NCBI GenBank assembly: GCA_964423745.1
Contig: CAYRGG010000006.1
Coordinates: forward strand, 16,406-80,405
From: an uncultured Candidatus Competibacteraceae bacterium
Lineage (GTDB): Bacteria > Pseudomonadota > Gammaproteobacteria > Competibacterales > Competibacteraceae
Direction of reading: 5' to 3'
DNA: 64,000 bases
A program made the position numbers and the translations under genes. Positions 30,964 to 47,892 of the stretch are shown here, piece by piece (positions within the stretch are counted from its first letter, which is position 1; the number at the start of each line of letters is the position of its first letter). The notes beneath the pieces were generated by a model. That model had not been told where the DNA came from and did not search any database. It saw only the letters and a list, made by a program, of their open reading frames with translations.

Positions 30964-31035
30964 GACTTGATAGCTCAGTTGGTAGAGCGATGGATATCAC
31001 TCCATTTGGCGCAGGTTCAACTCCTGCTCAAGTAC
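30964..31035 (+). ncRNA. tRNA-like element. The D-arm and T-arm are canonical, but the anticodon loop is non-canonical at 6 nt, the terminal acceptor pair is mismatched, and no CCA is encoded. It could be a Y-RNA-like tRNA mimic or a tRNA pseudogene.
   Basis: D-arm GCTC-AGTTGGTA-GAGC. T-arm GCAGG-TTCAACT-CCTGC. 6/7 acceptor pairs. Anticodon stem ATGGA/TCCAT with loop TATCAC. Confidence 0.4.
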
Positions 31036-34423: not shown

Positions 34424-35122
34424 ATGCAATACCTTACAGGTCAGTTTAAGCTTTATCTGCTAATACTTGCTTTCTTTAATGTTGCCTGTGGAAACACACA
34501 GCCACAGTTAGCGGTCGACTCCATCGCCCATGAGCCCTATTACCAGAGCCCTGTGCTATTAACCCTTGCATGGCGTCTGCCTGTCGCGGCAATGTATAAA
34601 GACGATTTTGAGTATCAGATAAATGCCGCTTTCTGTGGACCCGCCACTGTTGTCAGTGTGTTTGGATCGTTAGGAGTGAAACCGGAACATACTCAAAGTA
34701 GCCTGTTTGAGAAAGCCGATGTCGGCTATTGGAAAGCTCGTATTATGGGGTTAACGCTTGATGAGATGACAGAGCTGATGAAAGCGAATTCAAACCTTGC
34801 TATCATTGCTCACCGGAATCTGTTAGAAACCCAATTTCGCAGCTATTTACGCAAAACAAATAATCCAAACTATCGTCTTGTTATCAATTTTCATCGAGAA
34901 CCGCTATTCGGCGTTGATATAGGGCATTTTTCCCCCATCGGCGGCTATCTGGAAAAGCAGGATCTGGTTTTCGTGCTCGACGTTTTGGAGGATTATCAGC
35001 CTTTCTTAGTGCCAGCCGATCGATTATTCGAGGCCATGGATACCATCGATGGATCCACGGGGCAGAAACGAGGTCTAATTTTAGTGCAGGCAGTGGCTAA
35101 TAATGAGCTAATAACTCCATGA
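34424..35122 (+). CDS. Phytochelatin-synthase-like (C83/papain-fold) cysteine peptidase, secreted or lipoprotein half-size bacterial type.
   Basis: AFCGPATV catalytic Cys context, GHFSPIGGY catalytic His context, and a signal peptide with an N-terminal VACG lipobox-like motif. Confidence 0.6.
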   Translation: MQYLTGQFKLYLLILAFFNVACGNTQPQLAVDSIAHEPYYQSPVLLTLAWRLPVAAMYKDDFEYQINAAFCGPATVVSVFGSLGVKPEHTQSSLFEKADVGYWKARIMGLTLDEMTELMKANSNLAIIAHRNLLETQFRSYLRKTNNPNYRLVINFHREPLFGVDIGHFSPIGGYLEKQDLVFVLDVLEDYQPFLVPADRLFEAMDTIDGSTGQKRGLILVQAVANNELITP

Positions 35123-36099
35123 CCGACGATTACGATAGTCCCTGGAAGGATGTGCTAGAGCGTTACTTTCAGGCATTTATAGCTTTTTGCTTTCCCCAAG
35201 CTCATGACGAGATCAATTGGGTGAGAGGCTACGAAAGCCTCGATACCGAATTGCAGCAAATCGTGCGGGATGCAGACAGCGGTCGCCGTTTAGCCGATAA
35301 ACTGATGAAGGTTTGGCGCTGCGATGGGCAAGAACAAATTGTTTTGATCCACATCGAAGTGCAAGGCGAGCCGGACTCCAAGTTCACTGAACGGATGTTT
35401 ATCTATCACTACCGGCTTTATGATCGTTATCGTCAGCCCATTGTTAGTATAGCTGTGTTGGGGGACGATCAATCCAACTGGCGACCCGAGCAGTATCAAA
35501 CGGAGCTTTGGGGGTGCCAAACGCGCTTACGTTTTCCAGTGGTGAAGCTTATGGATTACACAGCAAATTGGCAGGTTTTAGAAAATAGCGCCAATCCCTT
35601 CGCCACCCTAATCATGGCGCACCTTAAAACCAAAGCTACCCGGCATGATCCATCCGGTCGCTTGGTTTGGAAACTACGATTAGTAAAACGACTTTACGAA
35701 AAAGGTTATAACCGCGAAGATGTATTAGAAATGTTTCGGTTTATTGACTGGTTGCTGGCGCTGCCGCCAGAATTAGAACAGCAATTTACTGTACAGTTGA
35801 GTGACTATGAGGCTGCCATGAGTACACCATATATCACTAGCATAGAGCGACTAGGTATTGAGAAAGGCCGTCAGCAGGGACTTGAGCAGGGACTTGAGCA
35901 GGGACTTGAGCAGGGTATATTGCAAGGCGAACGTCAGTTGTTGGTACGCCAAGCTCGGCTGCGTTTTGGAGATGCTGTAGCAGAAGCTTTGGGAAAAAAG
36001 ATCGAACCAATCAATGACCCAGAGCGATTAGCTGACATCGGGGTGTGGATTATCGAGTGCGAATCCGGTGAGGCGCTGTTGACGCGGTTAAAAAGGTAG
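35119..36099 (+). CDS. Rpn-family / DUF4351 PD-(D/E)XK recombination-promoting nuclease (putative transposase-like).
   Basis: N-terminus DSPWKDVLERYFQAFIAFCFPQ is the family start motif. C-terminal GLEQGLEQGLEQG repeats. ATGA overlap with the upstream gene. Confidence 0.5.
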   Translation: MTDDYDSPWKDVLERYFQAFIAFCFPQAHDEINWVRGYESLDTELQQIVRDADSGRRLADKLMKVWRCDGQEQIVLIHIEVQGEPDSKFTERMFIYHYRLYDRYRQPIVSIAVLGDDQSNWRPEQYQTELWGCQTRLRFPVVKLMDYTANWQVLENSANPFATLIMAHLKTKATRHDPSGRLVWKLRLVKRLYEKGYNREDVLEMFRFIDWLLALPPELEQQFTVQLSDYEAAMSTPYITSIERLGIEKGRQQGLEQGLEQGLEQGILQGERQLLVRQARLRFGDAVAEALGKKIEPINDPERLADIGVWIIECESGEALLTRLKR

Positions 36100-37205: not shown

Positions 37206-37873
37206 CTCATAATTCCTTATAGGGATAAATAACTAAAAGATCATTACCGATAGCAAGGCTTTCAATGTACTCATAACCCCTTATAGGGATAAATAACTTT
37301 TGGATGTACATGGAAGCAACCTATCCTCACAAGTCTCATAACCCCTTATAGGGATGAATAACCACCTCGCCAATCACGCCCGTGCCCTGCTCGCTGCCAC
37401 TCATAACCCCTTATAGGGATGAATAACCGTATCGAGGATGCAGCTGATAGCCACGATCAGCGCCTCATAACTCCTTATAGAAATGAATAACATTTTTTTT
37501 GTAGCCATAGCAACCATATTCTCAATCTCATAACCCCTTATAGGGATGAATAACCAGCTGCCAGTAGGGAACAGCCTCATTAGGATTCAGCCTCATAACC
37601 CCTTATAGGGATGAATAACATGGGAATATGCGCCGCCAAGGCATGGGGAGTCATCTCATAACCCCTTATAGGGATGAATAACTATCTCGACCTGGATGGC
37701 GATAAACCATTTATCGGCCTCATAACCCCTTATAGGGATGAATAACATGGGAATATGGGCCGCCAAGGCATGGGGAATCAGCTCATAACCCCTTATAGGG
37801 ATGAATAACTGATAAGCTGATTTAGAAGACAAGCATAATTTTCCTCTCATAACCCCTTATAGGGATGAATAAC
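37206..37873 (-). CRISPR. CRISPR array: 11 contiguous copies of a 28 bp repeat with 35-37 nt spacers. The leader is at the 37874-38009 side, so transcription is on the minus strand.
   Basis: Repeat starts at 37206, 37270, 37335, 37400, 37464, 37527, 37592, 37655, 37719, 37782 and 37846. The cas2-proximal repeats are perfect and the distal ones degenerate. Confidence 0.9.
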
Positions 37874-38009
37874 CCCCCAATTATGGCAAAAAAATGACTT
37901 TAGGAAAGCCATGGAATAGCAAAAAACACCTTGAAATAATATAAAAAGCACTTCAAGCCCCTATAACGAATACTTCACAGTAAATCGAAGTAAGTACAGA
38001 ATAAAAAAA

Positions 38010-38312
38010 TCACAAAACACCGAAGTCTCGCCGATGATCATCTATTGGCTGGCGTTGTACTTCACCTTTGCCCGATTCGTTTTTTTCTAGGTGAATCACT
38101 TCAATGTTGTGGCGGTTTGCAGCGGTAATTTCGGTCAACCGATCACCAGGAATCATCAATCGGCTTAACTCCCGGCGTAATTGAATAGCACTAGCCTCTG
38201 TAATGTCTCCGCAAAATACAGAGTACTGATCGTGATTCAAATACCTCTGCAGCAATTTCTTGAACTTCTGAGTACGTTTTGCCTCTACATCGTAAGTCAT
38301 TAACATATACAT
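38010..38312 (-). CDS. cas2: Cas2.
   Basis: About 100 aa. MLMTYDV...YSVF pattern. It is the last gene before the leader and array. Confidence 0.7.
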   Translation of the reverse strand: MYMLMTYDVEAKRTQKFKKLLQRYLNHDQYSVFCGDITEASAIQLRRELSRLMIPGDRLTEITAANRHNIEVIHLEKNESGKGEVQRQPIDDHRRDFGVL

Positions 38313-38330
38313 TAAATTGAACTCTGCAAA

Positions 38331-39306
38331 CTAAACTTTGCGTTTAAAAGATTCATACTCAGCGATACCCAACAAGTGACGCTCAAGAGCTAAAGCCTCC
38401 CGATACACCCATTCTCTAAAGCTACGGCCTTGATACTTCTCTTCTAAACGAATTGAAAATTGTTCCGCTACATGGCGGCGTCCTGTGTCACTAAGCAGGC
38501 ATACTCCATCGTGTTGCTCCAACCAGTTATCCGCTAGCATATTACGACCTGCCATTCGGAAAATCAGATTATCTCCCAGCACAGGTTTGAAGGGTTCGGC
38601 TAGATCCAAACTTAGCGACGAGCGGCCATTACCGGGGCTGTGCAATAGACTAAAGGTTTCCTCTAAATGTGTTTTGAAAAGCTCATGGCGGCATATCGTG
38701 TAAACCAACTGGTTTAAGAACGACAGCAGACAGTTGATGGGATTGTTAGGCGGACGGCGTACCCGGGGTCCAAAAGCCAATAGGGGATTAGTGAATTTCC
38801 AGGCATCGTAATACCACTGATGTAAATTACCCTCTATGCCCATGAGCATTGCGGTATCTTTTGCTTTGTGAAGGCTCTTCAACAACCGTTGCATCTCAGT
38901 AATCGGTTTTTTTAATTTTTCATTTTTCATTGCCTCTATAGCGGTAATAGAGCAGATTAACGCACATATTATGGCCAGCTCCGCGCACAATTTCTCTGGC
39001 CAAGGCCATACGCTGCCGGTGGTCCAGCAGTGCCTGTGCCTGTATCAGCTTCACTCGTCCGGAAGGGTTACTAGCAACGGGTTCGAAAACGCCTTTGCAA
39101 TAACCATAGTAATCAAATACCGATAACCGCACACCATGCTTACCACACAGGCTCAGTAGCCGGGTGTTGAGATCACTTTCGCCTAGCAGCACCAAATGGC
39201 CAATCTTCTCAATAGGGAGGGCACGGGTACGGCCGCCGGTAGTGAGCATCAGCGTGTTTTCCCGGCGCCGCAAATGTGCCTCCCGGGAGACAAATAACGT
39301 TTCCAT
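38331..39306 (-). pseudogene. cas1: Cas1 interrupted by a frameshift. The N-terminal ORF is 38920-39306 and the C-terminal ORF is 38331-38990.
   Basis: The N-terminal beta-domain and C-terminal alpha-domain (RRPPNNPINCLLSF, DLAEPFKPVLGD) lie in different frames. The combined length of about 325 aa is typical for Cas1. Confidence 0.7.
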
Positions 39307-39314
39307 TCTTTTCC

Positions 39315-39863
39315 TCAGTCATGTCCACAAAAGGCAGCCAACGAGCAGCTAGCGCACAAGGGGATACGCTTAGCGGTTGGCACGGTTTGTTGTTGCGCCA
39401 ACGCTTGCAAATGCTCAGAGGATTGCCATAGGTTTTCTAGTTGTTTTACATCCAACGGCACCTCGCGGCGTTGGCGCGTAGACAGCACATGGGTAATCGC
39501 TCGCCACGCCTTGCCTGTAGCGATGGATAACAGCACGGCATAAAAGGCGGTCTGGTCATTACTGGCTTCCACAGCGCCTCCGGTATCCTTGTTCTCATAT
39601 ACGATGTGGTTTTCCCAGTCAATCCGATCCGGGGTCAGACCAAACAACCCGATAGTGGAACTATCACGAGCATAGCTGGTGAGATGTTTGGCAGTACCCA
39701 CAGCCACCCGTCCATGCCACTGGGCAAAGTTAATGCCGTGAAAATACATCCACGCCCGCCGCTGACACAGTTTAACGTGTTGAAAGTGCAGACCGTGCAA
39801 ACCGAGTCGATCGACGCGCTCAATAAACGCCGCTGCTCGGTTCCAGCGAAATAGCGTCGTCAT
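39315..39863 (-). CDS. cas4: Cas4 (RecB-like nuclease with an Fe-S cluster cysteine motif).
   Basis: C-terminal Cx2Cx5C (CASCSLAAFC) plus an N-terminal Cys. An ExK-like core IVYENKDTGG. Confidence 0.6.
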   Translation of the reverse strand: MTTLFRWNRAAAFIERVDRLGLHGLHFQHVKLCQRRAWMYFHGINFAQWHGRVAVGTAKHLTSYARDSSTIGLFGLTPDRIDWENHIVYENKDTGGAVEASNDQTAFYAVLLSIATGKAWRAITHVLSTRQRREVPLDVKQLENLWQSSEHLQALAQQQTVPTAKRIPLCASCSLAAFCGHD

Positions 39864-41808
39864 CGGTGTCCACCACTAAACCTGTACAAAGAACTAATTT
39901 TTCCGCTGCCGCTAAAGCCTGCGGATAAGTATCCCAAGGGGCATTAGGGTCGCTGTGCAACTCCCGACGCCACGCATCTGGTAAAAAACCCTTATCATCC
40001 AGTGCAGCTGTGTATTGGGTGTGAGGAAAGTGAACGCTGCGTTTTTTCGCCACATAGCGGTGCTGGTCTCGGAGGGACTCTTCTAGACGACCTTGGATCA
40101 GTAATTCCTCGTCGCCGTCCTCTCCCACCACTGACGGGCAGGTATCCAGTAGGTCAGTCTCACGCCGTAACCAGTTCAAATCAACACTAAGGGTGCGGCC
40201 ACGCTCGTCGCGTACCCGCAGCCGTTGCCCTATGTCCCGCAAGGTGTGAGCGGCCTGTTTGAATTTCGTTAACCAGGTTTTGGCGGGTGCGCAGAAGTAA
40301 GGGTCATCACACAGCTCACCCACCTGCTTGAGCAGCGCAAAAATCATCCCTGCTGTGGGCGGTTGACAAGCCCGCAGATGCTCGCGCCGAGGCCCTTTGT
40401 TGCTTGGATGTTCCAGCAATACATTCCAGTACAATCCAGCACTGTAAGCAGCGCGGTTGTTGAGGCTACCAAAATGTGGGTTGTTCGCGTTTTCGTCTAC
40501 GGGTTTAAAACGGGTTTTGGTATCTCGGGCCAGCACGTTGGTTAGGTCGGCAATCCCGACCACACTGTCGGCATGAGTCTTAAGCCAATGTTGCAATCGT
40601 CGCAACCAGGGATTGCGCTGCTCCATAGCAGCGTCAATCCGCACCCATACCTGACCCTGATGATGACCACGGGCAGCGCGGCCATAACGCTGGAGAAAAT
40701 TGAGTGGTGCAAATCCCGGTTCCATAAATAGTAGATTAGCGCCGAATGTCACGCCCATTTCGACACTGGCCGTGGCGATGAGTACGTCGAAAGCCAAGGG
40801 ATCGTGATCCCGCCCAGCGACAAAGTAATCGTTAAAGTTTTGCCCCTGATGACTGTCGTGGATGCTGTTGACCAGCAATGCTTTACCCGCCACGATGCCT
40901 GCTGAAATAAAATGCCGGTGTAAGGAGGGAAGCTGGCGGATCAAATCCGCCAAGGAATTATAGATGACGACCACCTGTCGCTTGGCCTTGACCTCATCCC
41001 TGACTTGCTGCAGATGCTCACCCAAAAGGTCTGCCAAACAGGCGCTAGGGTGAAAACTCAGAGTCACATCTCCATGGACGGGACGCCCACCAGGAGTAAG
41101 CTTCTCCTCCAACAGCGCCATGTCTGTGTTGTTTACCCCAATCTTGTTCAGCACTGGCGCTATGTCGATGGGTGTGGCAGAGAGAAAAGTGACCTTTGCC
41201 CGTCCGGGGACCACACCGTTTTGCGCTGCGACGGCTAGACGCGCACACACCGCAGCCAGACCAAAACCGCGGCTGTCGATGGTGTGAAATTCATCAAAAA
41301 CCAGGTGATCAAATTGAGTCAGTAGCTCGAAGATACCTTCAGCCCCTTGACCGGCTTGTAAATAACGGCCGATCAATAGATAACTGACTACTTCTGGTAC
41401 CGTAAAGACGATCTCACCGCCCCGGCGTGGCGAAAGCTCATAGAGGTCTCGAAGTCGTTGCACGGTAATCTCGCGCACCCCAATCGCACGTTGCCGTTGC
41501 GCCTCGTCGCTGGTCCATAGGGCAACCTTAGTTTCGGCGAGGGTGGGTTCCCAACCCTGTTCATGGACCAGTGCTAGCCGGGTGCTTTGAGCAAGATTCT
41601 GGGCTAGACGCCGGGTCGGCACGATGAATAATACCCGCGTCTGTTGTTGCGCCACCGCTCGTTGAAAGGCATAGCTTTTGCCCGCGCCAGTGGGTGCGCT
41701 GGCAATGCGTACAGCATGGGGATCATCCAGCAATGCCTGCTGAAAGGGCGATAAGCCAGTTTCTGCGCTGCCACCGTCCACAAAGTGTTTAGCAACGGTC
41801 AATTCCAT
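39820..41808 (-). CDS. cas3: Cas3' superfamily-2 helicase without an HD domain. The start is probably the ATG at 41808, which has a GGAGG Shine-Dalgarno; the ORF track extends to 41874.
   Basis: Walker A SAPTGAGKS close to the N-terminus. DExH box VFDEFH. No room for an HD domain. Confidence 0.7.
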   Translation of the reverse strand: MELTVAKHFVDGGSAETGLSPFQQALLDDPHAVRIASAPTGAGKSYAFQRAVAQQQTRVLFIVPTRRLAQNLAQSTRLALVHEQGWEPTLAETKVALWTSDEAQRQRAIGVREITVQRLRDLYELSPRRGGEIVFTVPEVVSYLLIGRYLQAGQGAEGIFELLTQFDHLVFDEFHTIDSRGFGLAAVCARLAVAAQNGVVPGRAKVTFLSATPIDIAPVLNKIGVNNTDMALLEEKLTPGGRPVHGDVTLSFHPSACLADLLGEHLQQVRDEVKAKRQVVVIYNSLADLIRQLPSLHRHFISAGIVAGKALLVNSIHDSHQGQNFNDYFVAGRDHDPLAFDVLIATASVEMGVTFGANLLFMEPGFAPLNFLQRYGRAARGHHQGQVWVRIDAAMEQRNPWLRRLQHWLKTHADSVVGIADLTNVLARDTKTRFKPVDENANNPHFGSLNNRAAYSAGLYWNVLLEHPSNKGPRREHLRACQPPTAGMIFALLKQVGELCDDPYFCAPAKTWLTKFKQAAHTLRDIGQRLRVRDERGRTLSVDLNWLRRETDLLDTCPSVVGEDGDEELLIQGRLEESLRDQHRYVAKKRSVHFPHTQYTAALDDKGFLPDAWRRELHSDPNAPWDTYPQALAAAEKLVLCTGLVVDTDDDAISLEPSSGVY

Positions 41809-42446
41809 TGGTTGACCTCCGCGAAGGCATCTTGCAAAGGCATCTCGGCGCTGAGTTGTAAGCTGTGGAGGCAATAGCGGCTTACTCGTAGCCGGCTGCG
41901 CGGATTGAACAACACTGCCGTGGCAGCGTTCAACCGCACCGAGTTCACAGGGGTTTCAGCATCACAGGGTTTGAGCGCCACCATACCATTACGGTGCAGA
42001 CCGACGCGAATGACTAGCATGTCCTTACCCGTGTAGGCAAAGGGATTAAACCCGAACACAGCGCCGTAGAAGTGTTGGTCGGGCGGCACTTCTTGGGTGT
42101 GAAAAAAGGTTTTAAGGTTGCCTTTGCGGGTAACATCATCGAGTTTTTTTTGAAACCCCCCTTCACTATCTAGGTTAAACCGCCGCGTTAGCGGGGCTAA
42201 TAGACGCGGTTCCGGGGTGGTAAGTACCGATGTTCGGTACGGCATGGCCCTCAAATGACGGCGATAGTCTTTATCCGGCAACAACAGACGTGCGTCCATC
42301 CAGCCTAAAGTAGCGGCCAACCCAAAGGCCAATGCCTGGTCGCCAATCAACTCCGGCAGGGTGGCACTACCACCTTGCACCATTAAACTGTGGTAAGCAA
42401 AGGGGGTTAGGGTAATAGCCTGAATTGGGGTGATGATGGATTCCAT
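41799..42446 (-). CDS. cas5: Cas5-group RAMP (Csc1-like).
   Basis: 215 aa. Glycine-rich segments typical of RAMPs. Its position between cas7 and cas3', and the AGGAG Shine-Dalgarno, also fit. Confidence 0.45.
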   Translation of the reverse strand: MESIITPIQAITLTPFAYHSLMVQGGSATLPELIGDQALAFGLAATLGWMDARLLLPDKDYRRHLRAMPYRTSVLTTPEPRLLAPLTRRFNLDSEGGFQKKLDDVTRKGNLKTFFHTQEVPPDQHFYGAVFGFNPFAYTGKDMLVIRVGLHRNGMVALKPCDAETPVNSVRLNAATAVLFNPRSRLRVSRYCLHSLQLSAEMPLQDAFAEVNQWN

Positions 42447-42470
42447 AAGATGACTCCTTGAGTAGTCGAT

Positions 42471-43478
42471 TCAGCTGGCTTTTTTGCTGCCAAACCAGCT
42501 GTCGAACAAGTTGGCCACCTGCTTGGCTACGCCTCGATATTGATCTCGTAAGCTCCCATCATCCCCTTCAAAACGCTCAATCAAGCGGTGCAGATAATCT
42601 TCTAACGAAGCGCCATCTACGGTGGCCGGGTGTAGATTGGCAAGTCGGTTATGGAGCGATTGGGTTACGGCATTGACGTCACTGAGCTGGGATTCGGGCA
42701 ACTCTTTTAGCAGAGTTTTCAGCAGTTCGTAGGGAGAAGTTTCCGCCCGCTCAAAGGGCGCGGCGTAGGCCCCTACGAAGTAGGTGCGGATGTTAGTGCC
42801 GGTGAGGGAGGTTTGGCCGCCGTAAGCCCCTGCCAGGCCCAGGCATAGCAACAGATGATCTAAACCTTCCCGGGGTAACACCTGTCCCCGAGTCGATAAT
42901 ACTTGCATCAACAGCGTCCCCGGCGTCACGAAGTGGCGGGTAAACAAGTTTTCGCTGTTTTTCTTCTCCACGGCATCGAACAGCGTGCCATCCTCGGCAG
43001 CACGGTTATGGAATGTCTCGTCAACACACAGATGTTTTGGCAACAGACTCAAGGCATCAGAATAATTGACGGCGGCTTTGACCGGCAACACCCGGTTGTC
43101 TTGCGTGGTGGAATCACCGAACACGAGGGTGTTCAGGTCAAAGGCTTCCGAGGGTGCTTGCCCTTTATTGAGTGCCGTCCGGTTTTGCGGGTGTCGCCCT
43201 CCGACGCCATAGGCTCGCAGGATTTGTAGCCCCCGCCCCTTTTCTGGATATTTGAACTTATTGGGTACAGCTCGCATATGGACGCTGCCATCCAGGTCGA
43301 TGTCGGTGATTTCTTCTTCAGCATTGCGAAATACGCTAGGTGCGATGGTTTTTCGCAATAGTACTAAACTGACACTGCCGAGATTCTTTAAGGCGGGATG
43401 GATATATTGCTGTTTTCCGTCGCTACTGGTATCGGTGAGATGGGTAAGCTCGGCGAGAAAGGGGTTTAAGGTATCCAT
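42471..43478 (-). CDS. cas7: Cas7-group RAMP (Csc2-like). The start is taken at the ATG at 43478, which has a strong AGGAGA Shine-Dalgarno.
   Basis: About 335 aa. Its position after the large subunit fits. The Shine-Dalgarno overlaps the stop of the upstream gene. Confidence 0.45.
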   Translation of the reverse strand: MDTLNPFLAELTHLTDTSSDGKQQYIHPALKNLGSVSLVLLRKTIAPSVFRNAEEEITDIDLDGSVHMRAVPNKFKYPEKGRGLQILRAYGVGGRHPQNRTALNKGQAPSEAFDLNTLVFGDSTTQDNRVLPVKAAVNYSDALSLLPKHLCVDETFHNRAAEDGTLFDAVEKKNSENLFTRHFVTPGTLLMQVLSTRGQVLPREGLDHLLLCLGLAGAYGGQTSLTGTNIRTYFVGAYAAPFERAETSPYELLKTLLKELPESQLSDVNAVTQSLHNRLANLHPATVDGASLEDYLHRLIERFEGDDGSLRDQYRGVAKQVANLFDSWFGSKKAS

Positions 43479-43480
43479 GG

Positions 43481-46303
43481 TTACTTCTCCTCTTTGTTTT
43501 GAATGTGGCGGGCGCTGTTGATAAACGCCATACGGTAAATACTGCCCAACAGGCGCAGCTGGCTTTGGCTGGGCAATCGATCGGCCAGTGCGCCATGCCA
43601 GACATGGTTGACGAAGTAGTCGGCAAATGCGGTACAAACTTCACGGCGTTTGCTGGCCGCTTTTAAAAAGGTTTTGTCTTTACGGTCAAGGTTGATATCC
43701 AATTCCCCCGCGATGCCGTTGACCAGGGAGGTATCATCCATTTGGCGGGTTTTTAACAGGATGCGCAGGCTGTCCATCGCTAATTTAAACATCAGCATGG
43801 TTTCGTTGGCAGAGGCGTTAGCGCCAGGACGCTTTTGGATATTGGCGGCCATTTCTCCGAGCCTGACCAGGGGGGCTTCCGATTCACTCATGGCAAAATT
43901 CTCCTTTATGTCACAGTATTGATTGTTAAAGAGCTGACGAACATGTTTTATACGGTAGCTGTCGGTGCTTGCCCCTTCAGAGAGGCGCTTGTCGAACTGC
44001 TGCACGGCAAGGCAGATGGCACCAAAGCGGGTGTTACCCTCGGAATAAGCGCGTAACACCTCGTAGCCCAAAGGGTTTTCGTTTAATAGCACGCGGGCGA
44101 TTTCCAGCCTATCCAACGCGGCGGGGATCTGTTCCAGGCGTAGGCCGTGGGCATTCAGCAAATTTTCCAGTATCCGCGGTAAGGCATCGCAATAAAAGAA
44201 CTCCTTGCGGGGTGTGGGCAGACCACGGAATACATGTAATGGCCGACCGATACGGCGACAGGCCCGCAGCATCATGTCCAGCATTTCAATCTGCTCAGCC
44301 AGTTTTTCTGGCCAGCGCTCAAACCGAGCTATGCGCTGACGCCCTCGGAACATGGGCAGCCCGGTGACGACGCGGCCTTTTTTCACTTCCTGGCGACTGA
44401 GGTCAAACAGCGATAGGTGTTCGTTATCGCTAGACAAGGCCAAGCCGCCGAATAGCCCATTGGTGGTGGGTGAGGAGATCAAGCTGGGTACACCGCTGGG
44501 TTTGGCTCTTACCTGCGCAAATAGGTTTTCCCGCAGCCGATGCTCAGCGATGGAGGTGGGACTGACATTGGTGTGCCCACTTGCCTGGCGCAAATTTTCA
44601 GGTCGATTGTCACGGCCGGAAAAAGCCGACACTTTGACCTGGTACAGTCCTAAGGAGTCACGGATAGGGGAACCCCATGGTACCGGCTCGTCGGTGAACA
44701 AACAGCGCCCCGTTTCTGTTTCATCCACAGCCTTTACCCGTTCGTGCAGTAGCAGTTGCCGGTAACGCTGTACCACCGCTGGATTAATGTACTCACCTGC
44801 GGTAGCTAGGCTGTCTTTAAAACTCGGGCAATCATCCCTACCTTCCCACCAACGCCACAGCAAGCCCTCCTTACCCCAAATCGTGTCTTCAATATCAGGA
44901 TTGATATAGGTTTCACCCAGCAGCCATAGGGCAGTCAGCGCACGTCTTGATCCGCCATCGTCAATGGTTACCAGCCACTTTGGTTGGCCTAGATCAACCT
45001 CCCTTAGCAAGGTTTGCTCACGCTTAGTATAATCCGGGTAATCCGCCTTTTTGTCTTTTGATAGGTCGAGGTTCAGCACCAGCGCCAGTATCGCCGCTTT
45101 GCGTAAATCGACGACTGCCTGCGGGTGTAGGTCAGCGAGACTGGCATAGGGACTCAGGGTAGCACCGGTGATCTTCTCCGGCCAGCGGGGTGCGAGGTCC
45201 AGCGGCTCTAAACACTGCTCTAAGGGGTCAGCCACCACATCCCGTAACGATGCCTTGATGTTAAATAGCCTAGCGATGTCCCCCTCGTTGACAGTTTCTT
45301 GCAAGAATTGAGTCAGCTCAGGGTAATTTGGGCGGGCGTTTTGTAATATGGGTGTGCCCCGATTAGTGATGGTGAGTTCTAATCGAAACGGTAATCGCTG
45401 GGGTAGCTGATCTATTGCCCGTTCCACAATCGCCGGGTGCTGTTGTTTTGGCAACAGCATATATAAACAACCATCCTCATGGGCCTCAATCAGGGGCGGT
45501 AGTCCCGATAGTCGGGTGCAGTTTGTCGAAAGGAGCGTCTGCATTTCATCGACAATGAAGGGATGATGGGGATCATAGATTTCCACCGACTCCCACTCCC
45601 CAAGTTCTAAAGTGCGGTCTTCAATGAGCCGTTTTTTTACGCCTTCCAAACCATCCGTGTGCCAAATTCCGTCGAGCTTATCGGCAAGTTTTATAAAACG
45701 GGTTAAGCCTATATAGTCACGAGGCGGCAGGATTTTGGGCACGCTGCGTTGGGCTTGCAAGTCTTCCACCCGTTCGATGAGATAGAGCACTTGGTCTGGC
45801 GTTAAATGGATACTGCGGCGTTCAAAAAATTTATCGAGTCCGTAACGGGTCATCCGCTCGGCTATCATGGTTTTTGTCAGCGGTGTGTTACGGTCTAGCA
45901 TTAGATCTTTGTCGATGTCGTGCAGGAAAGCGACGACGACCACAATAACGAGTAGTATTTGCAAGTCGTCCGGTTCGATACCGCCGCGGAGTTTATCGAG
46001 CGCAGTCAGCACCAATGCCCCGCGGGTGACTGACAGTTGATGATCCAACAGGGTGATGTTGCGGCTTATCGCATAGCGGGCAGCGAACTCTGGATCAGGA
46101 CTCCAACCCCCTTTACCGCTGATGCTCATCAACCGGACTACCCGGATATCCACATGGGTTCCTTTATCGATAGCTTTTCGCTGTTTTTCGCTCAGGGGTT
46201 TTTCCCGATCCCTAAGCACACCCCCTTCGATAACCTCTTCTAGGAATTCCTGATAGATTTTCTCTGTCAACTGCCGGGCCAGCGATAATCGTTGGATATT
46301 CAT
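43481..46303 (-). CDS. cas10d: CRISPR large subunit with an N-terminal HD nuclease motif (Cas10d-like). The start is taken at the ATG at 46303, which overlaps the cas6 stop as ATGA.
   Basis: About 940 aa. The HD-domain motif FLHDIDKDL resembles Cas3 HD motif II. It is the largest gene of the operon. Confidence 0.55.
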   Translation of the reverse strand: MNIQRLSLARQLTEKIYQEFLEEVIEGGVLRDREKPLSEKQRKAIDKGTHVDIRVVRLMSISGKGGWSPDPEFAARYAISRNITLLDHQLSVTRGALVLTALDKLRGGIEPDDLQILLVIVVVVAFLHDIDKDLMLDRNTPLTKTMIAERMTRYGLDKFFERRSIHLTPDQVLYLIERVEDLQAQRSVPKILPPRDYIGLTRFIKLADKLDGIWHTDGLEGVKKRLIEDRTLELGEWESVEIYDPHHPFIVDEMQTLLSTNCTRLSGLPPLIEAHEDGCLYMLLPKQQHPAIVERAIDQLPQRLPFRLELTITNRGTPILQNARPNYPELTQFLQETVNEGDIARLFNIKASLRDVVADPLEQCLEPLDLAPRWPEKITGATLSPYASLADLHPQAVVDLRKAAILALVLNLDLSKDKKADYPDYTKREQTLLREVDLGQPKWLVTIDDGGSRRALTALWLLGETYINPDIEDTIWGKEGLLWRWWEGRDDCPSFKDSLATAGEYINPAVVQRYRQLLLHERVKAVDETETGRCLFTDEPVPWGSPIRDSLGLYQVKVSAFSGRDNRPENLRQASGHTNVSPTSIAEHRLRENLFAQVRAKPSGVPSLISSPTTNGLFGGLALSSDNEHLSLFDLSRQEVKKGRVVTGLPMFRGRQRIARFERWPEKLAEQIEMLDMMLRACRRIGRPLHVFRGLPTPRKEFFYCDALPRILENLLNAHGLRLEQIPAALDRLEIARVLLNENPLGYEVLRAYSEGNTRFGAICLAVQQFDKRLSEGASTDSYRIKHVRQLFNNQYCDIKENFAMSESEAPLVRLGEMAANIQKRPGANASANETMLMFKLAMDSLRILLKTRQMDDTSLVNGIAGELDINLDRKDKTFLKAASKRREVCTAFADYFVNHVWHGALADRLPSQSQLRLLGSIYRMAFINSARHIQNKEEK

Positions 46304-47028
46304 CGTCCTACTCCCTGCTCCAATAATCCTAGACAACCGAATCCACTGCGGGTCTTTTCCCCGATGCCGGCATACCAAGCGAGGCGCAGATCCACTTCGC
46401 TGCCCGCTAATACCAACGGTGCCCTCATGCCAATTACAAAGCTGCGTTTGCCGTTAGCCATTTTTTTCAGTGGCACCAATACGGAATGCTCAGGATTTGC
46501 CCGCAGATACAATCGATCGGGTTGGGCCTGTAACCGCACCTCGCGGCCAGCAAGACGGGACAATCGGCGGTTAATGACAGTGGCTAAGTCGATGCTGCTT
46601 AAGTCTTTAAGCCAACGTTTACGGTTGTTTTCCCGGATGCTGATTGCCAGTGGCGAGAGCATCAACAAACCCATAACCCCCTCGCCCGGTGGTATAGGAT
46701 CTTGTTCTTGAATAACCTCGGCAGAACTAAAATCGATCATCTCAGCGGTTTGAGCGCGAGCGTGACGAATGTGGACGGGGTCCATTTGCCGGAGTTTTTG
46801 CGCCAACCTGGGATCGAGTGTGGATACCACCAAGGTATGTACGCTGCTAGCATCTTTGTATCGACGGCCTAAAGCTGCGAAATTCCAGGGACTTGCCGAT
46901 GAGCCTATTATCTCCTCAGCCTCAACACCGGTGGCTGTAAAACCGTTGATAAGGGCATCATGGAGGAGGTCGAGGTGTTGGTAGCAAGCCGTTTTAGGTA
47001 AACGTATCCGTATGCGATTCATAGACAT
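46300..47028 (-). CDS. cas6: Cas6 crRNA endoribonuclease.
   Basis: C-terminal glycine-rich loop GIGEKTRSGFGCLG. 242 aa. It is the first gene of the operon. Confidence 0.6.
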   Translation of the reverse strand: MSMNRIRIRLPKTACYQHLDLLHDALINGFTATGVEAEEIIGSSASPWNFAALGRRYKDASSVHTLVVSTLDPRLAQKLRQMDPVHIRHARAQTAEMIDFSSAEVIQEQDPIPPGEGVMGLLMLSPLAISIRENNRKRWLKDLSSIDLATVINRRLSRLAGREVRLQAQPDRLYLRANPEHSVLVPLKKMANGKRSFVIGMRAPLVLAGSEVDLRLAWYAGIGEKTRSGFGCLGLLEQGVGR

Positions 47029-47094
47029 TTCCTCAAAATAAGCTATGCTTTTTAGTGTAAATATTTTTTTTACCTAAGTAATAGTGAACCTGTC

Positions 47095-47892
47095 ATGAAA
47101 AATGACATATATGAACGATTTACTTACATCGAAACTCGGCTTTGGTGGGGCGATGGCGTAACAGCAAGCGAGTTGGCTAAAACATTTGGTTTAGCTCGCC
47201 AGACTGCGCAGGGGGTCATCGATCTTTACCGGCGTCAGCATCCAGGCACCCTTATTTATGACGAATCCCGCCGACGCCAAATTGCAACACCAGATTTTAA
47301 ACCTACCTATATTCGACCTAAACCCGCAGCTTTCTTGGATTATCTACGGGGGCAAGCAATGACTGCCTACTATATGGAAGAAAAGGATTGGACGGATTTA
47401 CCTTTTGAGGATGTAGATCACCTGCTCAGGCCTGCCTTAAGCAGAGAACCCATAGAGGTTTTGTTGTCAGCGTTACGCCATCAACGTGCAGTAACCATCA
47501 ATTATTTTTCTAAAAGAAGGGCTCGTTTGCGGGATATTTCCCCGCACCGTCTGATCTTTGCCGGTAATCGTTATCATGTACGCGGCTATTGCCACGTTAC
47601 GAATGATTTTTTCGACTTTGTTTTATCGAGAATCGATCATGCGGAAACGTCTCTGACCGAATGGGTCGCCGACCAGGATGACGAAAAATGGCATAGGTTT
47701 GTGGACCTGTGTTTTAAACCCAACGAAAAGCTTCCTCCTGAAACTTATAGAGCGCTGGTTTATGATTATCCATTGGATGACCAAAATATTTATAAGGTGC
47801 CTTGTCGGGAAGCTTTAGTCCTTTACGTGGAAAGAGAGCTGATAGCAACTAACCCTAAATATGGTTACTCGCTTTGGGTTCGTGTAAAGTGA
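47095..47892 (+). CDS. WYL-domain transcriptional regulator (HTH plus WYL), divergent from the cas operon.
   Basis: The WYL-domain core is RHQRAVTINYFSKRRARLRDISPHRLIFAGNRYHVRGYCH...FVLSRI. The N-terminal segment is HTH-like. Confidence 0.65.
   Translation: MKNDIYERFTYIETRLWWGDGVTASELAKTFGLARQTAQGVIDLYRRQHPGTLIYDESRRRQIATPDFKPTYIRPKPAAFLDYLRGQAMTAYYMEEKDWTDLPFEDVDHLLRPALSREPIEVLLSALRHQRAVTINYFSKRRARLRDISPHRLIFAGNRYHVRGYCHVTNDFFDFVLSRIDHAETSLTEWVADQDDEKWHRFVDLCFKPNEKLPPETYRALVYDYPLDDQNIYKVPCREALVLYVERELIATNPKYGYSLWVRVK

What the first reader, a model, noticed from the sequence alone, without database searches (positions are those of the whole stretch)
37206..47892. CRISPR-Cas locus with type I-D content (HD-containing large subunit, HD-less Cas3', WYL regulator) but a type I-B-like gene order and 28 bp repeats.
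The minus-strand operon reads cas6 (46300-47028), a roughly 940 aa large subunit with an HD motif FLHDIDKDL (43481-46303), cas7, cas5, a cas3' helicase whose Walker A lies at the N-terminus with no HD, cas4, cas1 and cas2, then the leader and array. An HD domain on the large subunit together with an HD-less Cas3' is the defining feature of subtype I-D. A WYL regulator divergent from the operon is also known for cyanobacterial I-D loci. The order cas6-large-cas7-cas5-cas3-cas4-cas1-cas2 is the canonical I-B arrangement, not the cas3'-cas10d-csc2-csc1-cas6 order of cyanobacterial I-D. The 28 bp repeat is also shorter than the roughly 37 bp repeats I recall for I-D. Every gene junction from cas6 to cas3' shows translational coupling (ATGA overlaps or Shine-Dalgarno sequences inside upstream stops). 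Together with the neighbouring cyanobacteria-type genes (DUF29, DUF4351/Rpn, PCS-like), this suggests a horizontally acquired, possibly under-described I-D/I-B intermediate arrangement.
Basis: partly seen in the sequence, partly recalled or inferred. Interest (0 to 1): 0.7.

Follow-up and report, generated by a model that had tools for sequence, protein, structure and literature searches.

The report
Non-cyanobacterial type I-D CRISPR locus
This is a genuine type I-D CRISPR-Cas immune locus of a widespread but never experimentally studied non-cyanobacterial lineage, so its unusual gene order and short 28-base repeats are normal for that lineage, and this copy has a broken cas1 gene.

Summary
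Window 37206-47892 carries a divergent WYL/BrxR-type regulator, then on the minus strand cas6-cas10d-cas7-cas5-cas3'-cas4-cas1-cas2, a leader, and 11 copies of a 28-nt repeat. The large subunit is Cas10d, not Cas8b. An AlphaFold model (pLDDT 87) matches only solved Cas10d structures (7sba_I, E 3e-13). The H..HD..D motif is invariant in 30 homologues. Cas3' has no HD domain.

The architecture is not a rare I-D/I-B intermediate. All ~60 related loci long enough to judge, drawn from 80 species genomes (Chromatiaceae, Thiothrix, Beggiatoaceae, Competibacteraceae, Desulfobacterota, Acidobacteriota and others, no cyanobacteria), have the same order. Every array found beside them uses the same 28-nt repeat family. 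PADLOC already holds full-length I-D profiles for this lineage, and a 2023 review notes that cas3' and cas6 positions differ between I-D groups.

Three points are new here:
- An internal ATG with an AAGGAG Shine-Dalgarno site inside cas10d predicts a 136-aa Cas11d. The site is conserved across the lineage.
- cas1 is split by a 7-bp tandem duplication.
- The adaptation module is I-B-like.

The host is a sigma-54-bearing gammaproteobacterium-like MAG, not a cyanobacterium. Verdict: new member of a known kind, modest interest.

The parts
37206..37873 (-). CRISPR array with 11 repeats of 28 nt (crRNA sense GTTATTCATCCCTATAAGGGGTTATGAG) and 10 spacers of 35-37 nt. The repeats at 37206 and 37270 are degenerate. 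The repeat at 37464 is a variant that keeps the stem pairing.
   Evidence: The same repeat family, position and orientation occur in about 55 related loci. The 4-bp GC stem is paired in 99-100% of 22 distinct repeats.
37874..38009 (-). AT-rich leader. It contains the lineage-conserved motif ACTTCGA-N8-TGAAGT (37972-37991) and a G-run at the junction with the first repeat.
   Evidence: No sigma-70 consensus match on the minus strand.
38010..38312 (-). cas2 (100 aa)
   Evidence: Pfam PF09827 59.5 bits, TIGR01573 37.6 bits. The best PADLOC model is Cas2b.
38331..39306 (-). cas1, disrupted. The N-terminal ORF is 38920-39306 (128 aa) and the C-terminal ORF is 38331-38930 (199 aa). The best profile for both is I-B Cas1b.
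   Evidence: It is 77-81% identical to the intact 322-aa Cas1 of locus L027.
38915..38928 (-). 7-bp tandem duplication GAAAAAT-GAAAAAT that causes the +1 frameshift in cas1 at the linker between its two domains.
   Evidence: Removing one copy restores the reading frame and the 6-residue spacing seen in L027. The truncated product is called on 4 contig records.
39315..39863 (-). cas4 (182 aa). It overlaps the end of cas3' by 44 nt.
   Evidence: Pfam PF01930 78.8 bits. PADLOC Cas4d PDLC02036 316 bits.
39820..41808 (-). cas3' (662 aa), an SF2 helicase with no HD domain.
   Evidence: TIGR03158 (type I-D Cas3') 70.2 bits against a cut-off of 69.1. PADLOC Cas3d PDLC02032 818 bits. No conserved His or Asp in the C-terminal ~260 residues across 28 homologues. 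The best PDB matches are stand-alone Cas3 helicases.
41799..42446 (-). cas5d / csc1-like (215 aa)
   Evidence: PADLOC Cas5d PDLC01565 323 bits. No Pfam or NCBIfam hit. No detectable similarity to Synechocystis Cas5d.
42471..43478 (-). cas7d / csc2 (335 aa)
   Evidence: Pfam Csc2 PF18320 35 bits against a cut-off of 25.5. hhalign against Synechocystis Cas7d gives E 2e-5.
43481..46303 (-). cas10d (940 aa), the large subunit with an N-terminal HD nuclease motif (H88, H128-D129, D208; FLHDIDKDL at 45902-45928).
   Evidence: PADLOC Cas10_Id 1122 and 1106 bits. The AF2 model has pLDDT 87.1. Foldseek against the PDB gives only four hits with E<=1e-3, all Cas10d. Invariant residues are listed.
43481..43891 (-). 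Predicted internal cas11d (136 aa), in frame within cas10d. Its ATG at 43891 is preceded by AAGGAG 9 nt upstream.
   Evidence: An ATG with a Shine-Dalgarno site is conserved in 44 of 72 relatives. Most of the distant subclade has GTG after GGAGG two codons upstream. hhalign aligns this Met with Synechocystis M830, the mapped Cas11d start.
46300..47028 (-). cas6d (242 aa), first gene of the operon. Its stop overlaps the cas10d start (ATGA).
   Evidence: PADLOC Cas6d PDLC02045 355 bits. Pfam Cas_Cas6_C 34.7 bits.
47095..47892 (+). Divergently transcribed WYL-domain (BrxR-family) regulator (265 aa), 66 nt from cas6.
   Evidence: Pfam WYL 51.5 bits. The identical product on the source contig carries WHD_BrxR, WYL and BrxR_CTD hits. 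It holds the same position and orientation in nearly all related loci.

Best explanation
[quoted passage not shown] It sits in the chromosome of an uncultured gammaproteobacterium-like organism related to Competibacteraceae.

Inferred mechanism, by homology to the Synechocystis and Sulfolobus I-D systems:
1. The divergent WYL/BrxR-type regulator controls the cas operon.
2. The array is transcribed from the leader on the minus strand.
3. Cas6d cuts each 28-nt repeat at the 3' base of its short GC hairpin. This should give crRNAs with a 7-8-nt 5' handle (.UUAUGAG), a ~36-nt spacer and a ~20-nt 3' hairpin.
4. Cas10d, Cas5d, about seven Cas7d, Cas6d and several copies of an internally translated Cas11d assemble on the crRNA as Cascade.
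5. Cascade finds a PAM-flanked protospacer in dsDNA and forms an R-loop. It then recruits the HD-less helicase Cas3', while the HD domain of Cas10d cuts the DNA.

Cas4-Cas1-Cas2, an I-B-like adaptation module, would add spacers. In this genome cas1 is broken by a 7-bp tandem duplication. The locus is therefore most likely still able to interfere with its 10 existing spacers but unable to acquire new ones.

Shown here: gene identities, the Cas10d fold, conservation of the HD motif, absence of HD in Cas3', conservation of the internal start with its Shine-Dalgarno site, the cas1 lesion, and lineage-wide conservation of gene order and repeat.

Inferred only: expression, the crRNA ends, complex stoichiometry, the PAM, nuclease activity and the regulator's role.
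For: - Profile classification: PADLOC Cas10_Id 1122 bits, Cas3d 818, Cas5d 323, Cas6d 355, Cas4d 316 and weaker Cas7d hits. NCBIfam type I-D Cas3' is above its curated cut-off. Pfam Csc2 is above its gathering score.
- Fold: the AF2 model of Cas10d has pLDDT 87.1 and pTM 0.80. The only PDB hits with E<=1e-3 are Cas10d chains 7sba_I (2.9e-13), 6thh_C, 7sbb_I and 6yes_B.
- HD motif: H88, H128, D129 and D208 are invariant in 30 homologues at 32-52% identity. There is a weak Pfam HD hit at residues 119-211.
- Cas3': Walker A at residue 38, no HD family hit, and no conserved His or Asp in the C-terminal domain.
- Cas11d: an internal start with a Shine-Dalgarno site is conserved across 72 loci. It aligns with the mapped Synechocystis start M830.
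- Lineage-wide gene order and the 28-nt repeat lying downstream of cas2.
- cas1 lesion.
- Mechanistic template for I-D from PMC10212523.
Against: - No member of this lineage has been studied experimentally.
- Its Cas10d and Cas5 show no sequence-level similarity to the characterised I-D proteins. Functional transfer therefore rests on fold and on operon logic.
- No protospacer was found for any spacer, so DNA targeting and the PAM are unverified.
- No promoter consensus was found in the leader.
- The broken cas1 raises the possibility that the whole locus is decaying, although all other genes are intact.
Confidence: 0.88

Rival explanations
1. This is an ordinary type I-B locus. The large subunit would be a divergent Cas8b and the helicase would carry a cryptic HD nuclease domain.
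For: The gene order cas6-LS-cas7-cas5-cas3-cas4-cas1-cas2 is the I-B order. Cas1 and Cas2 score best with I-B profiles: TIGR03641 gives 160.5 and 99.6 bits for the two Cas1 halves, and PADLOC gives Cas1b and Cas2b.
Against: - The large subunit hits only Cas10_Id profiles.
- Its model matches only Cas10d structures.
- It carries an invariant HD motif.
- Cas3' starts with the helicase Walker A at residue 38 and has no HD hit and no conserved His/Asp motif.
- Cas7 hits only Cas7d/Csc2 models.
Confidence: 0.02
2. This is a distinct, unnamed I-D sub-subtype or an I-D/I-B evolutionary intermediate. The lineage combines an I-D effector with an I-B-type operon layout, an I-B-like adaptation module and short repeats of the length and hairpin layout I associate with I-E/I-F. 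It may therefore differ mechanistically from canonical I-D in crRNA architecture and PAM, and deserve separate classification.
For: - The order and the 28-nt repeat are fixed across the lineage and differ from Synechocystis.
- Cas10d is only 12-14% identical to the solved Cas10d structures. A family profile finds no PDB chain by sequence.
- The family is discrete, with 274 representative clusters.
- Adaptation proteins score best with I-B profiles.
Against: - The defining I-D features are all present, so under current rules it is simply I-D.
- Reference HMM sets already label this lineage I-D.
- Published work already describes a third, non-cyanobacterial Cas10d lineage and shifted cas3' and cas6 positions.
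- Cas7 shows similarity only to I-D profiles and Cas5 only to the lineage's own I-D profile. No I-B effector profile was hit.
- Exchange of adaptation modules between subtypes is common, which I state from general knowledge of the Makarova classification papers.
Confidence: 0.25
3. This is a decaying, non-functional relic. The cas1 frameshift would mark a locus that is no longer expressed or used.
For: - cas1 is split by a 7-bp duplication that is reproducible in 4 contig records.
- The array has only 10 spacers, against 20-70 in many relatives.
- Three repeats carry mutations, and two spacers are near-duplicates.
Against: - All seven other cas genes and the regulator are full length and free of frameshifts, with catalytic motifs intact.
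- The leader-proximal repeats are perfect.
- The internal cas11d start and its Shine-Dalgarno site are intact.
- A single recent lesion in cas1 is compatible with continued interference.
Confidence: 0.15
4. cas1 remains functional despite the lesion. Either it works as a two-piece Cas1, with the N-domain and catalytic C-domain translated separately from overlapping ORFs, or a +1 ribosomal frameshift occurs at AAA-UGA.
For: - The break lies exactly at the linker between the two domains.
- The downstream ORF starts with an ATG 8 nt before the upstream stop, which resembles translational coupling.
- The site is A-rich, reading GAA AAA UGA.
Against: - All relatives with complete loci encode a single ~322-aa Cas1 and lack the duplication. 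The lesion therefore looks recent, not a conserved device.
- No strong Shine-Dalgarno site or known frameshift context is present.
Confidence: 0.07

Closest known systems
Synechocystis sp. PCC 6803 CRISPR1 (type I-D, plasmid pSYSA), the biochemically and structurally characterised bacterial I-D system
   Same: - A divergent WYL regulator.
- Cas10d with an HD domain, sharing the fold (7sba_I, E 2.9e-13).
- An HD-less Cas3'.
- A Csc2-type Cas7 (hhalign E 2e-5).
- A Cas11d start inside cas10d at the aligned position, M805 against M830.
- The order cas4-cas1-cas2-array at the 3' end.
- Spacers of about 35-37 nt.
   Different: - Gene order: Synechocystis has cas3' first and cas6 after cas5. Here cas6 is first and cas3' follows cas5.
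- Repeat length: 37 nt there against 28 nt here.
- Cas10d and Cas5 are unrecognisable by sequence.
- Cas1 there is the I-D (CYANO) type, here it is I-B-like.
- The host phylum differs.
- The PAM is GTN in Synechocystis and unknown here.
Sulfolobus islandicus LAL14/1 type I-D Cas10d (PDB 6THH, 6YES)
   Same: The large-subunit fold matches (E 3.6e-8 and 2.8e-6). The HD nuclease sits on the large subunit.
   Different: It is archaeal. Sequence identity is 12-14%. Its associated regulator is a CARF-domain Csa3 rather than a WYL protein.
Type I-B CRISPR-Cas (cas6-cas8b-cas7-cas5-cas3-cas4-cas1-cas2)
   Same: - Identical operon order, as I recall it from the Makarova classification.
- Cas1 and Cas2 give their best profile matches to I-B models.
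- An internal cas11 start inside the large-subunit gene is also reported for I-B.
   Different: - The large subunit here is Cas10d with an HD domain, not Cas8b.
- Cas3 lacks the HD domain.
- Cas7 gives no I-B profile hit.
- Cas5 matches only the lineage's own Cas5d profile and no I-B profile.
- Cas6 matches a Cas6b profile only weakly (25 bits, against 355 for Cas6d).
(All.)
Related loci of the same lineage, for example Marichromatium sp. AB32 (L002), Allochromatium warmingii DSM 173 (L029), Thiothrix fructosivorans plasmid pTfr153 (L070), Ca. Competibacteraceae STL-PRO95 (L027) and Desulfobulbaceae MAGs (L005, L075)
   Same: The same nine-gene layout, the same 28-nt repeat family, the same leader motif and the same internal cas11d start.
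   Different: - The window's Cas10d is at most 52% identical to any of them.
- The similarity is mosaic. WYL, Cas6, Cas4 and Cas1 are closest to L027 (59-80%), while Cas10d is closest to L075, L001 and L005 (50-52%) and only 41% identical to L027.
- cas1 is intact in most of them and broken here.
- Their arrays are usually longer.

Membership tests
Type I-D CRISPR-Cas | The large subunit is Cas10d (Cas10-like), not Cas8. | tested here: met
   PADLOC Cas10_Id profiles give 1122 and 1106 bits over the full length. Foldseek of the AF2 model (pLDDT 87.1) finds only Cas10d chains with E<=1e-3.
Type I-D CRISPR-Cas | The HD nuclease domain is carried by the large subunit. | tested here: met
   H88, H128-D129 and D208 are invariant in 30 homologues. 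A weak Pfam HD hit covers residues 119-211 with E 0.078. Partial Foldseek hits to HD-GYP proteins have probability 0.87. Catalytic activity itself cannot be tested here.
Type I-D CRISPR-Cas | A separate Cas3' helicase lacking an HD domain. | tested here: met
   TIGR03158 scores 70.2 bits against a cut-off of 69.1. Walker A is at residue 38. No HD family hit. No conserved His or Asp in the C-terminal domain of 28 homologues. The best PDB hits are stand-alone Cas3 helicases.
Type I-D CRISPR-Cas | Cas7 of the Csc2 family. | tested here: met
   Pfam PF18320 scores 35 bits against a cut-off of 25.5. TIGR03157 scores 34.6, just under its cut-off of 38. hhalign against Synechocystis Cas7d gives E 2e-5 and probability 77%.
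Type I-D CRISPR-Cas | Cas5 of the Csc1 family. | tested here: inconclusive
   The only hit is the PADLOC Cas5d profile PDLC01565 at 323 bits, apparently this lineage's own profile to judge from the full-length 323-bit match. No Pfam or NCBIfam hit. No similarity to Synechocystis Cas5d or to any PDB chain. Its position and size fit Cas5.
Type I-D CRISPR-Cas | The small subunit Cas11d is produced from an internal start in cas10d. | tested here: met
   The ATG at 43891 is preceded by AAGGAG 9 nt upstream. An ATG with a Shine-Dalgarno site is conserved in 44 of 72 relatives. Most of the distant subclade has GTG after GGAGG two codons upstream. The ATG aligns with the mapped Synechocystis M830. Actual translation cannot be tested here.
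Type I-D CRISPR-Cas | The cyanobacterial layout cas3'-cas10d-csc2-csc1-cas6 with a ~37-nt repeat. This is typical of the subtype, not defining. | tested here: not met
   The order here is cas6-cas10d-cas7-cas5-cas3' and the repeat is 28 nt. Synechocystis is shown. The literature already notes that the order varies between I-D groups.
Type I-D CRISPR-Cas | A GTN PAM and bidirectional dsDNA degradation. | not testable with these tools
   No protospacer was found for the window's spacers or for 1687 spacers from relatives.
Type I-B CRISPR-Cas | A Cas8b large subunit and an HD-containing Cas3 (or Cas3''). | tested here: not met
   No Cas8b profile hit and a Cas10d fold. No HD domain on Cas3' and no separate cas3'' gene in the operon.
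Type I-B CRISPR-Cas | Operon order cas6-LS-cas7-cas5-cas3-cas4-cas1-cas2 with a Cas1b-type adaptation module. | tested here: met
   The order is confirmed. For Cas1 the best profiles are TIGR03641 and PADLOC Cas1b, and for Cas2 the best is Cas2b. This shows resemblance only, because the defining effector features are not met.
WYL/BrxR-family defence regulators | An N-terminal winged-helix DNA-binding domain followed by a WYL ligand-sensing domain, encoded next to the regulated defence operon. | tested here: met
   Pfam WYL scores 51.5 bits against a cut-off of 21.8, with a weak HTH_28 hit. The identical product on the source contig carries WHD_BrxR, WYL and BrxR_CTD hits. The gene is divergent from cas6 in nearly all relatives. 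A repressor role cannot be tested here.

The most novel reading that the evidence does not exclude
The lineage to which this locus belongs may be a mechanistically distinct, so far unnamed branch of I-D. It combines an I-B-type operon layout, an I-B-like adaptation module, a 28-nt repeat with a short hairpin (a length and layout I associate with I-E/I-F repeats), and a Cas10d only 12-14% identical to the solved ones. It could represent the architecture from which I-B-like systems arose when the HD domain moved from Cas10d to Cas3'. Alternatively it could be a recombinant of an I-D effector with an I-B adaptation and processing frame. Its PAM and crRNA handle rules might differ from canonical I-D.
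Probability: 0.2. Interest if true: 0.5.

Novelty: new member of a known kind. Interest (0 to 1): 0.25.

Why it matters
As a classification result this is routine. Current typing profiles call the locus I-D, and its apparent oddities are the norm for its lineage.

There is modest value in what the comparison shows. The non-cyanobacterial I-D lineage is a tight, conserved module with a fixed order, a fixed 28-nt repeat, a conserved leader motif and a strongly conserved internal cas11d ribosome-binding site. It occurs in at least 92 species genomes and 274 protein-cluster representatives, and no member has been characterised experimentally. All I-D biochemistry comes from Synechocystis, Microcystis and Sulfolobus, whose proteins are barely or not at all alignable with these. 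Anyone wanting a second, compact I-D editor, or wanting to test how the HD domain moved between the large subunit and Cas3 during type I evolution, would find this lineage a reasonable target.

The cas1 lesion gives a natural example of an adaptation-dead but otherwise intact system.

Tried and rejected
- Single-sequence scan of genome contigs with Cas10d peptide patterns found no relative. It succeeded after a profile was built.
- Megablast of the whole locus against plasmids: no match.
- Sequence-level searches of the PDB with the Cas10d profile, the Cas3' and Cas7 single sequences, and the Cas5 and Cas7 profiles gave nothing meaningful. Only the fold comparison linked Cas10d to known structures.
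- hhalign of the Cas10d profile against Synechocystis Cas10d was statistically weak (E 0.13). For Cas5 there was nothing.
- Protospacer and PAM hunt, all without a target:
  - Window spacers against the window and all held loci.
  - 1687 spacers from relatives against all held loci, which found only within-array duplicates.
  - Four viral-contig scans with window spacers.
  - The Thiothrix and Allochromatium arrays against plasmids, which found only a self-hit.
- Both metagenome-contig scans found nothing. One looked for an undisrupted or disrupted cas1 allele and the other for the exact repeat.
- The simple promoter and terminator scans were not enriched over shuffles and gave no leader promoter.
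- Inverted-repeat search in the cas6-WYL intergenic region found no convincing operator.
- Covariation in the repeat stem is too sparse to choose between two pairing registers.
- I considered and rejected a CRISPR-associated transposon. The flanking genes scanned show no transposase domains, and Cas3' and the HD motif are intact.
- I considered and rejected a sequencing-error origin for the cas1 frameshift. The change is a 7-bp duplication rather than a homopolymer length change, and the truncated product is on 4 contig records.

Full report
**What is in the sequence**

The array, leader and cas genes are transcribed on the minus strand. The locus runs as follows (coordinates ascend on the + strand).
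- The array occupies 37206-37873. It has 11 copies of a 28-nt repeat (crRNA sense GTTATTCATCCCTATAAGGGGTTATGAG) and 10 spacers of 35-37 nt.
- The two repeats farthest from the cas genes are degenerate. The eight repeats nearest the leader, apart from one variant at 37464, are perfect.
- A 136-nt AT-rich leader (37874-38009) separates the array from cas2.
- Upstream lie cas2 (38010-38312), cas1 (38331-39306), cas4 (39315-39863), cas3' (39820-41808), cas5 (41799-42446), cas7 (42471-43478), cas10d (43481-46303) and cas6 (46300-47028).
- A WYL-domain regulator is transcribed divergently (47095-47892, + strand).

- cas6/cas10d share an ATGA overlap.
- cas10d ends GAGGAGAAGTAAccATG.
- cas7 and cas5 are separated by 24 nt containing AAGGAG.
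- cas5 and cas3' overlap by 10 nt, with GGAGG upstream.
- cas3' and cas4 overlap by 44 nt.

**Subtype**

Four lines of evidence answer it.
1. PADLOC-DB models named Cas10_Id match the 940-aa protein end to end at 1122 and 1106 bits. Lineage-matching I-D models also exist for Cas3' (818 bits), Cas5 (323), Cas6 (355) and Cas4 (316).
2. Independent libraries agree where they can see the proteins. NCBIfam's type I-D Cas3' model scores 70.2 bits against a curated cut-off of 69.1. Pfam's Csc2 model scores 35 against 25.5 for Cas7.
3. The large subunit has no sequence-level relative in the PDB, even as a 30-sequence profile. I therefore predicted its structure (pLDDT 87.1, pTM 0.80) and compared folds. 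The only four PDB hits with E<=1e-3 are all Cas10d. They are the Synechocystis I-D Cascade chains 7sba_I (E 2.9e-13, TM about 0.47 over the whole length) and 7sbb_I, and the Sulfolobus islandicus Cas10d entries 6thh_C and 6yes_B.
4. The HD signature is intact.

Cas3' begins with its Walker A motif at residue 38. It has no HD family hit, and 28 homologues show no conserved His or Asp in its C-terminal 260 residues. As a profile, its best PDB matches are stand-alone Cas3 helicases. The locus is I-D.

**Is the arrangement unusual?**

It differs from Synechocystis, which I fetched for comparison. Synechocystis reads WYL, cas3', cas10d, cas7d, cas5d, cas6, cas4, cas1d, cas2 and has a 37-nt repeat. 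Within its own lineage, however, the window's arrangement is the rule.
- A profile scan of one genome per GTDB species found 92 species with this Cas10d family. Eighty loci were kept.
- They come from Chromatiaceae, Thiothrix, Thiolinea and Thiofilum, Beggiatoaceae, Competibacteraceae, Methylococcaceae, Desulfobacterota, SAR324, Zetaproteobacteria, Acidobacteriota, Latescibacterota, Binatia, Spirochaetia and others. None is cyanobacterial.
- Every locus long enough to judge (about 60) shows cas6, cas10d, cas7, cas5, cas3', cas4, cas1, cas2 in that order. A divergent WYL gene was detected in nearly all of them (gene calls).
- Every array detected beside them lies downstream of cas2 on the same strand. 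All use the same 28-nt repeat family, GTTnnnnATCCCCATGAGGGGTwATGAG, with a period of 64-66.
- 1730 spacers from 55 loci have a modal length of 36 nt.
- Against 1.84 billion representative proteins the family has 274 members at E<=1e-3.

[quoted passage not shown] So the I-B-like order and the short repeat are real, but they are lineage traits that are already catalogued. They are not a peculiarity of this window.

**What is I-B-like**

Apart from gene order, the adaptation proteins lean towards I-B. Both halves of Cas1 score best with the I-B models: TIGR03641 gives 160.5 and 99.6 bits, and PADLOC Cas1b gives 176 and 106. The I-D (CYANO) model gives 85 and 46 bits. Cas2 scores best with Cas2b. 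In contrast, Cas7 matches only Cas7d profiles and Cas5 only the Cas5d profile, and neither hits an I-B profile. This is module mixing, not a hybrid effector.

**Internal small subunit**

- In frame within cas10d, an ATG at 43891 is preceded by AAGGAG 9 nt upstream. It would give a 136-aa C-terminal product.
- Across 72 distinct relatives the aligned codon is ATG in 44, almost all preceded by a GGAG-type Shine-Dalgarno site.
- In most of the distant subclade (Acidobacteriota and related groups) a GTG two codons upstream follows a conserved GGAGG.
- The weak hhalign match to Synechocystis Cas10d covers exactly this C-terminal region. It pairs the window's M805 with Synechocystis M830, the residue mapped by mass spectrometry as the Cas11d start.

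Conservation of a ribosome-binding site inside a coding region across proteins that are 30-50% identical is good evidence for a translated Cas11d.

**The cas1 lesion**

- tblastn with the intact 322-aa Cas1 of a Competibacteraceae relative (L027, 77-81% identical) shows a frame change after residue 126.
- The DNA reads GGCAAT-GAAAAAT-GAAAAAT-TAAAAAAACC. The GAAAAAT unit is duplicated in tandem at 38915-38928.
- Deleting one copy restores the frame and exactly the 6-residue spacing seen in L027.
- This is a 7-bp duplication, not a homopolymer miscount. The truncated 128-aa product is called on four contig records, including the 109-kb JGI contig that matches this window. It is therefore a real mutation.
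- The break falls at the linker between the N-terminal and catalytic domains, and the downstream ORF has its own ATG. A two-piece Cas1 cannot be excluded, but loss of adaptation is much more likely.
- This fits the small array and its mutated repeats.
- All other cas genes are full length.

**crRNA**

The repeat has a 4-bp GC stem that is paired in 99-100% of 22 distinct repeat variants. A few changes preserve pairing, for example C10-G20 to U10-A20 in L048 and in the window's own variant repeat at 37464. Covariation is too sparse to fix the pairing register. By analogy with Cas6 enzymes that cut at the 3' base of the stem (for canonical I-D), the crRNA should carry a 7-8-nt 5' handle (.UUAUGAG) and a ~20-nt 3' hairpin. 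Canonical I-D leaves a 29-nt 3' handle. This is inference only.

**Host and context**

The window matches a JGI metagenome contig (CydA 100% identical). The nearest named CydA sequences are from Candidatus Competibacteraceae, at 75%. The window encodes an RtcR sigma-54 activator, which points away from cyanobacteria. DUF29 and a phytochelatin-synthase-like gene do flank the array, but the CRISPR lineage itself has no cyanobacterial members.

The cas operon is 52.4% GC against 45.5% for the rest of the window. The effector genes are 52-55% GC, cas1 is 48%, cas2 43% and the WYL gene 45%.

Similarity is mosaic. WYL, Cas6, Cas4 and Cas1 are closest to Competibacteraceae locus L027 (59-80%). Cas10d is closest to L075, L001 and L005 (50-52%; two of them Desulfobulbaceae-type MAGs) and is only 41% identical to L027. 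One relative sits on a Thiothrix plasmid (L070). Horizontal spread and recombination within the lineage are therefore plausible.

**What could not be established**

No protospacer was found for any spacer, so the PAM and targets are unknown. No leader promoter was identified. Cas5's assignment rests on a profile that apparently derives from this lineage, plus its position in the operon. No member of this lineage has been studied experimentally, so the mechanism is transferred from systems whose proteins are at the limit of detectable similarity.

**Verdict**

The suggestion of a rare or under-described intermediate is not supported. This is a new, fairly divergent member (at most 52% Cas10d identity) of a known, conserved, non-cyanobacterial I-D lineage. 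It is probably able to interfere but unable to adapt.

Noticed in passing
window 30964-31035 (+): A tRNA-like gene lies between the rtcR sigma-54 activator (29042-30670, minus) and an SPFH/Band_7 gene. It matches Rfam tRNA at 49.1 bits. ARAGORN cannot assign it and reports a 4-base anticodon 'atca'. The anticodon loop is one position shorter than the model's. It may be a tRNA mimic or Y-RNA-like partner of an RtcR-controlled RNA-repair system rather than a decoding tRNA.
   Followed up: partly
window 38915-38928 (-): A 7-bp tandem duplication (GAAAAAT x2) splits cas1 at its interdomain linker. The truncated product appears on four contig records.
   Followed up: yes
window 37620-37654 and 37747-37781: Two spacers are near-identical, differing by 3 of 35 nt. 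Exact or near-exact duplicate spacers within a single array are also common in related loci (L011, L015, L023, L042, L057 and others). This suggests frequent intra-array recombination or repeated acquisition from the same protospacer.
   Followed up: partly
window 37972-37991 (leader); the same position in about 20 related loci: A conserved leader motif, ACTTCGA-N8-TGAAGT, lies about 100-120 nt upstream of the first repeat. A second GAAGT-like box follows about 20 nt further on, then a T-run, then a G-run at the leader-repeat junction. The sequence is conserved without covariation, which suggests a protein-binding site, for example for the integration machinery or the regulator.
   Followed up: partly
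window 37464-37491: An internal repeat variant (GTTATTCATTTCTATAAGGAGTTATGAG) carries three substitutions that keep the stem paired (C-G to U-A and C-G to U-G). It mirrors the consensus repeat of a Competibacteraceae relative (L048).
   Followed up: partly
window 39820-39863; L001 9116-9159, L002 13108-13151, L004 16664-16707: The 44-nt overlap between the end of cas3' and the start of cas4 is the same length in relatives down to about 33% protein identity. This suggests a constrained coupling or a dual-coding segment.
   Followed up: no
window 38010-47892 compared with L027, L005 and L075: The relationships are mosaic. The regulator, Cas6, Cas4 and Cas1 are closest to a Competibacteraceae locus (59-80%), while Cas10d is closest to L075, L001 and L005 (50-52%; two Desulfobulbaceae-type MAGs) and only 41% identical to the Competibacteraceae one. 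GC content also steps from 52-55% (cas6 to cas4) to 43-48% (cas1, cas2, WYL).
   Followed up: partly
window 35873-35915: A perfect 12-nt tandem repeat, AGCAGGGACTTG x3.6, lies inside an unannotated 326-aa ORF (35119-36099) with no Pfam match. This ORF follows the phytochelatin-synthase-like gene.
   Followed up: no
representative-protein hits P0497, P0503, P0509, P0513, P0514: Several proteins of 137-153 aa in the public collection match only the C-terminal, Cas11d-equivalent part of the Cas10d profile. They may be contig-end fragments, or cases where cas11d is called or encoded as a separate gene.
   Followed up: no
L070 (Thiothrix fructosivorans plasmid pTfr153): One complete locus of this I-D lineage, with an array of about 69 repeats, sits on a 153-kb plasmid. 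That is a possible vehicle for the lineage's wide phyletic spread.
   Followed up: no
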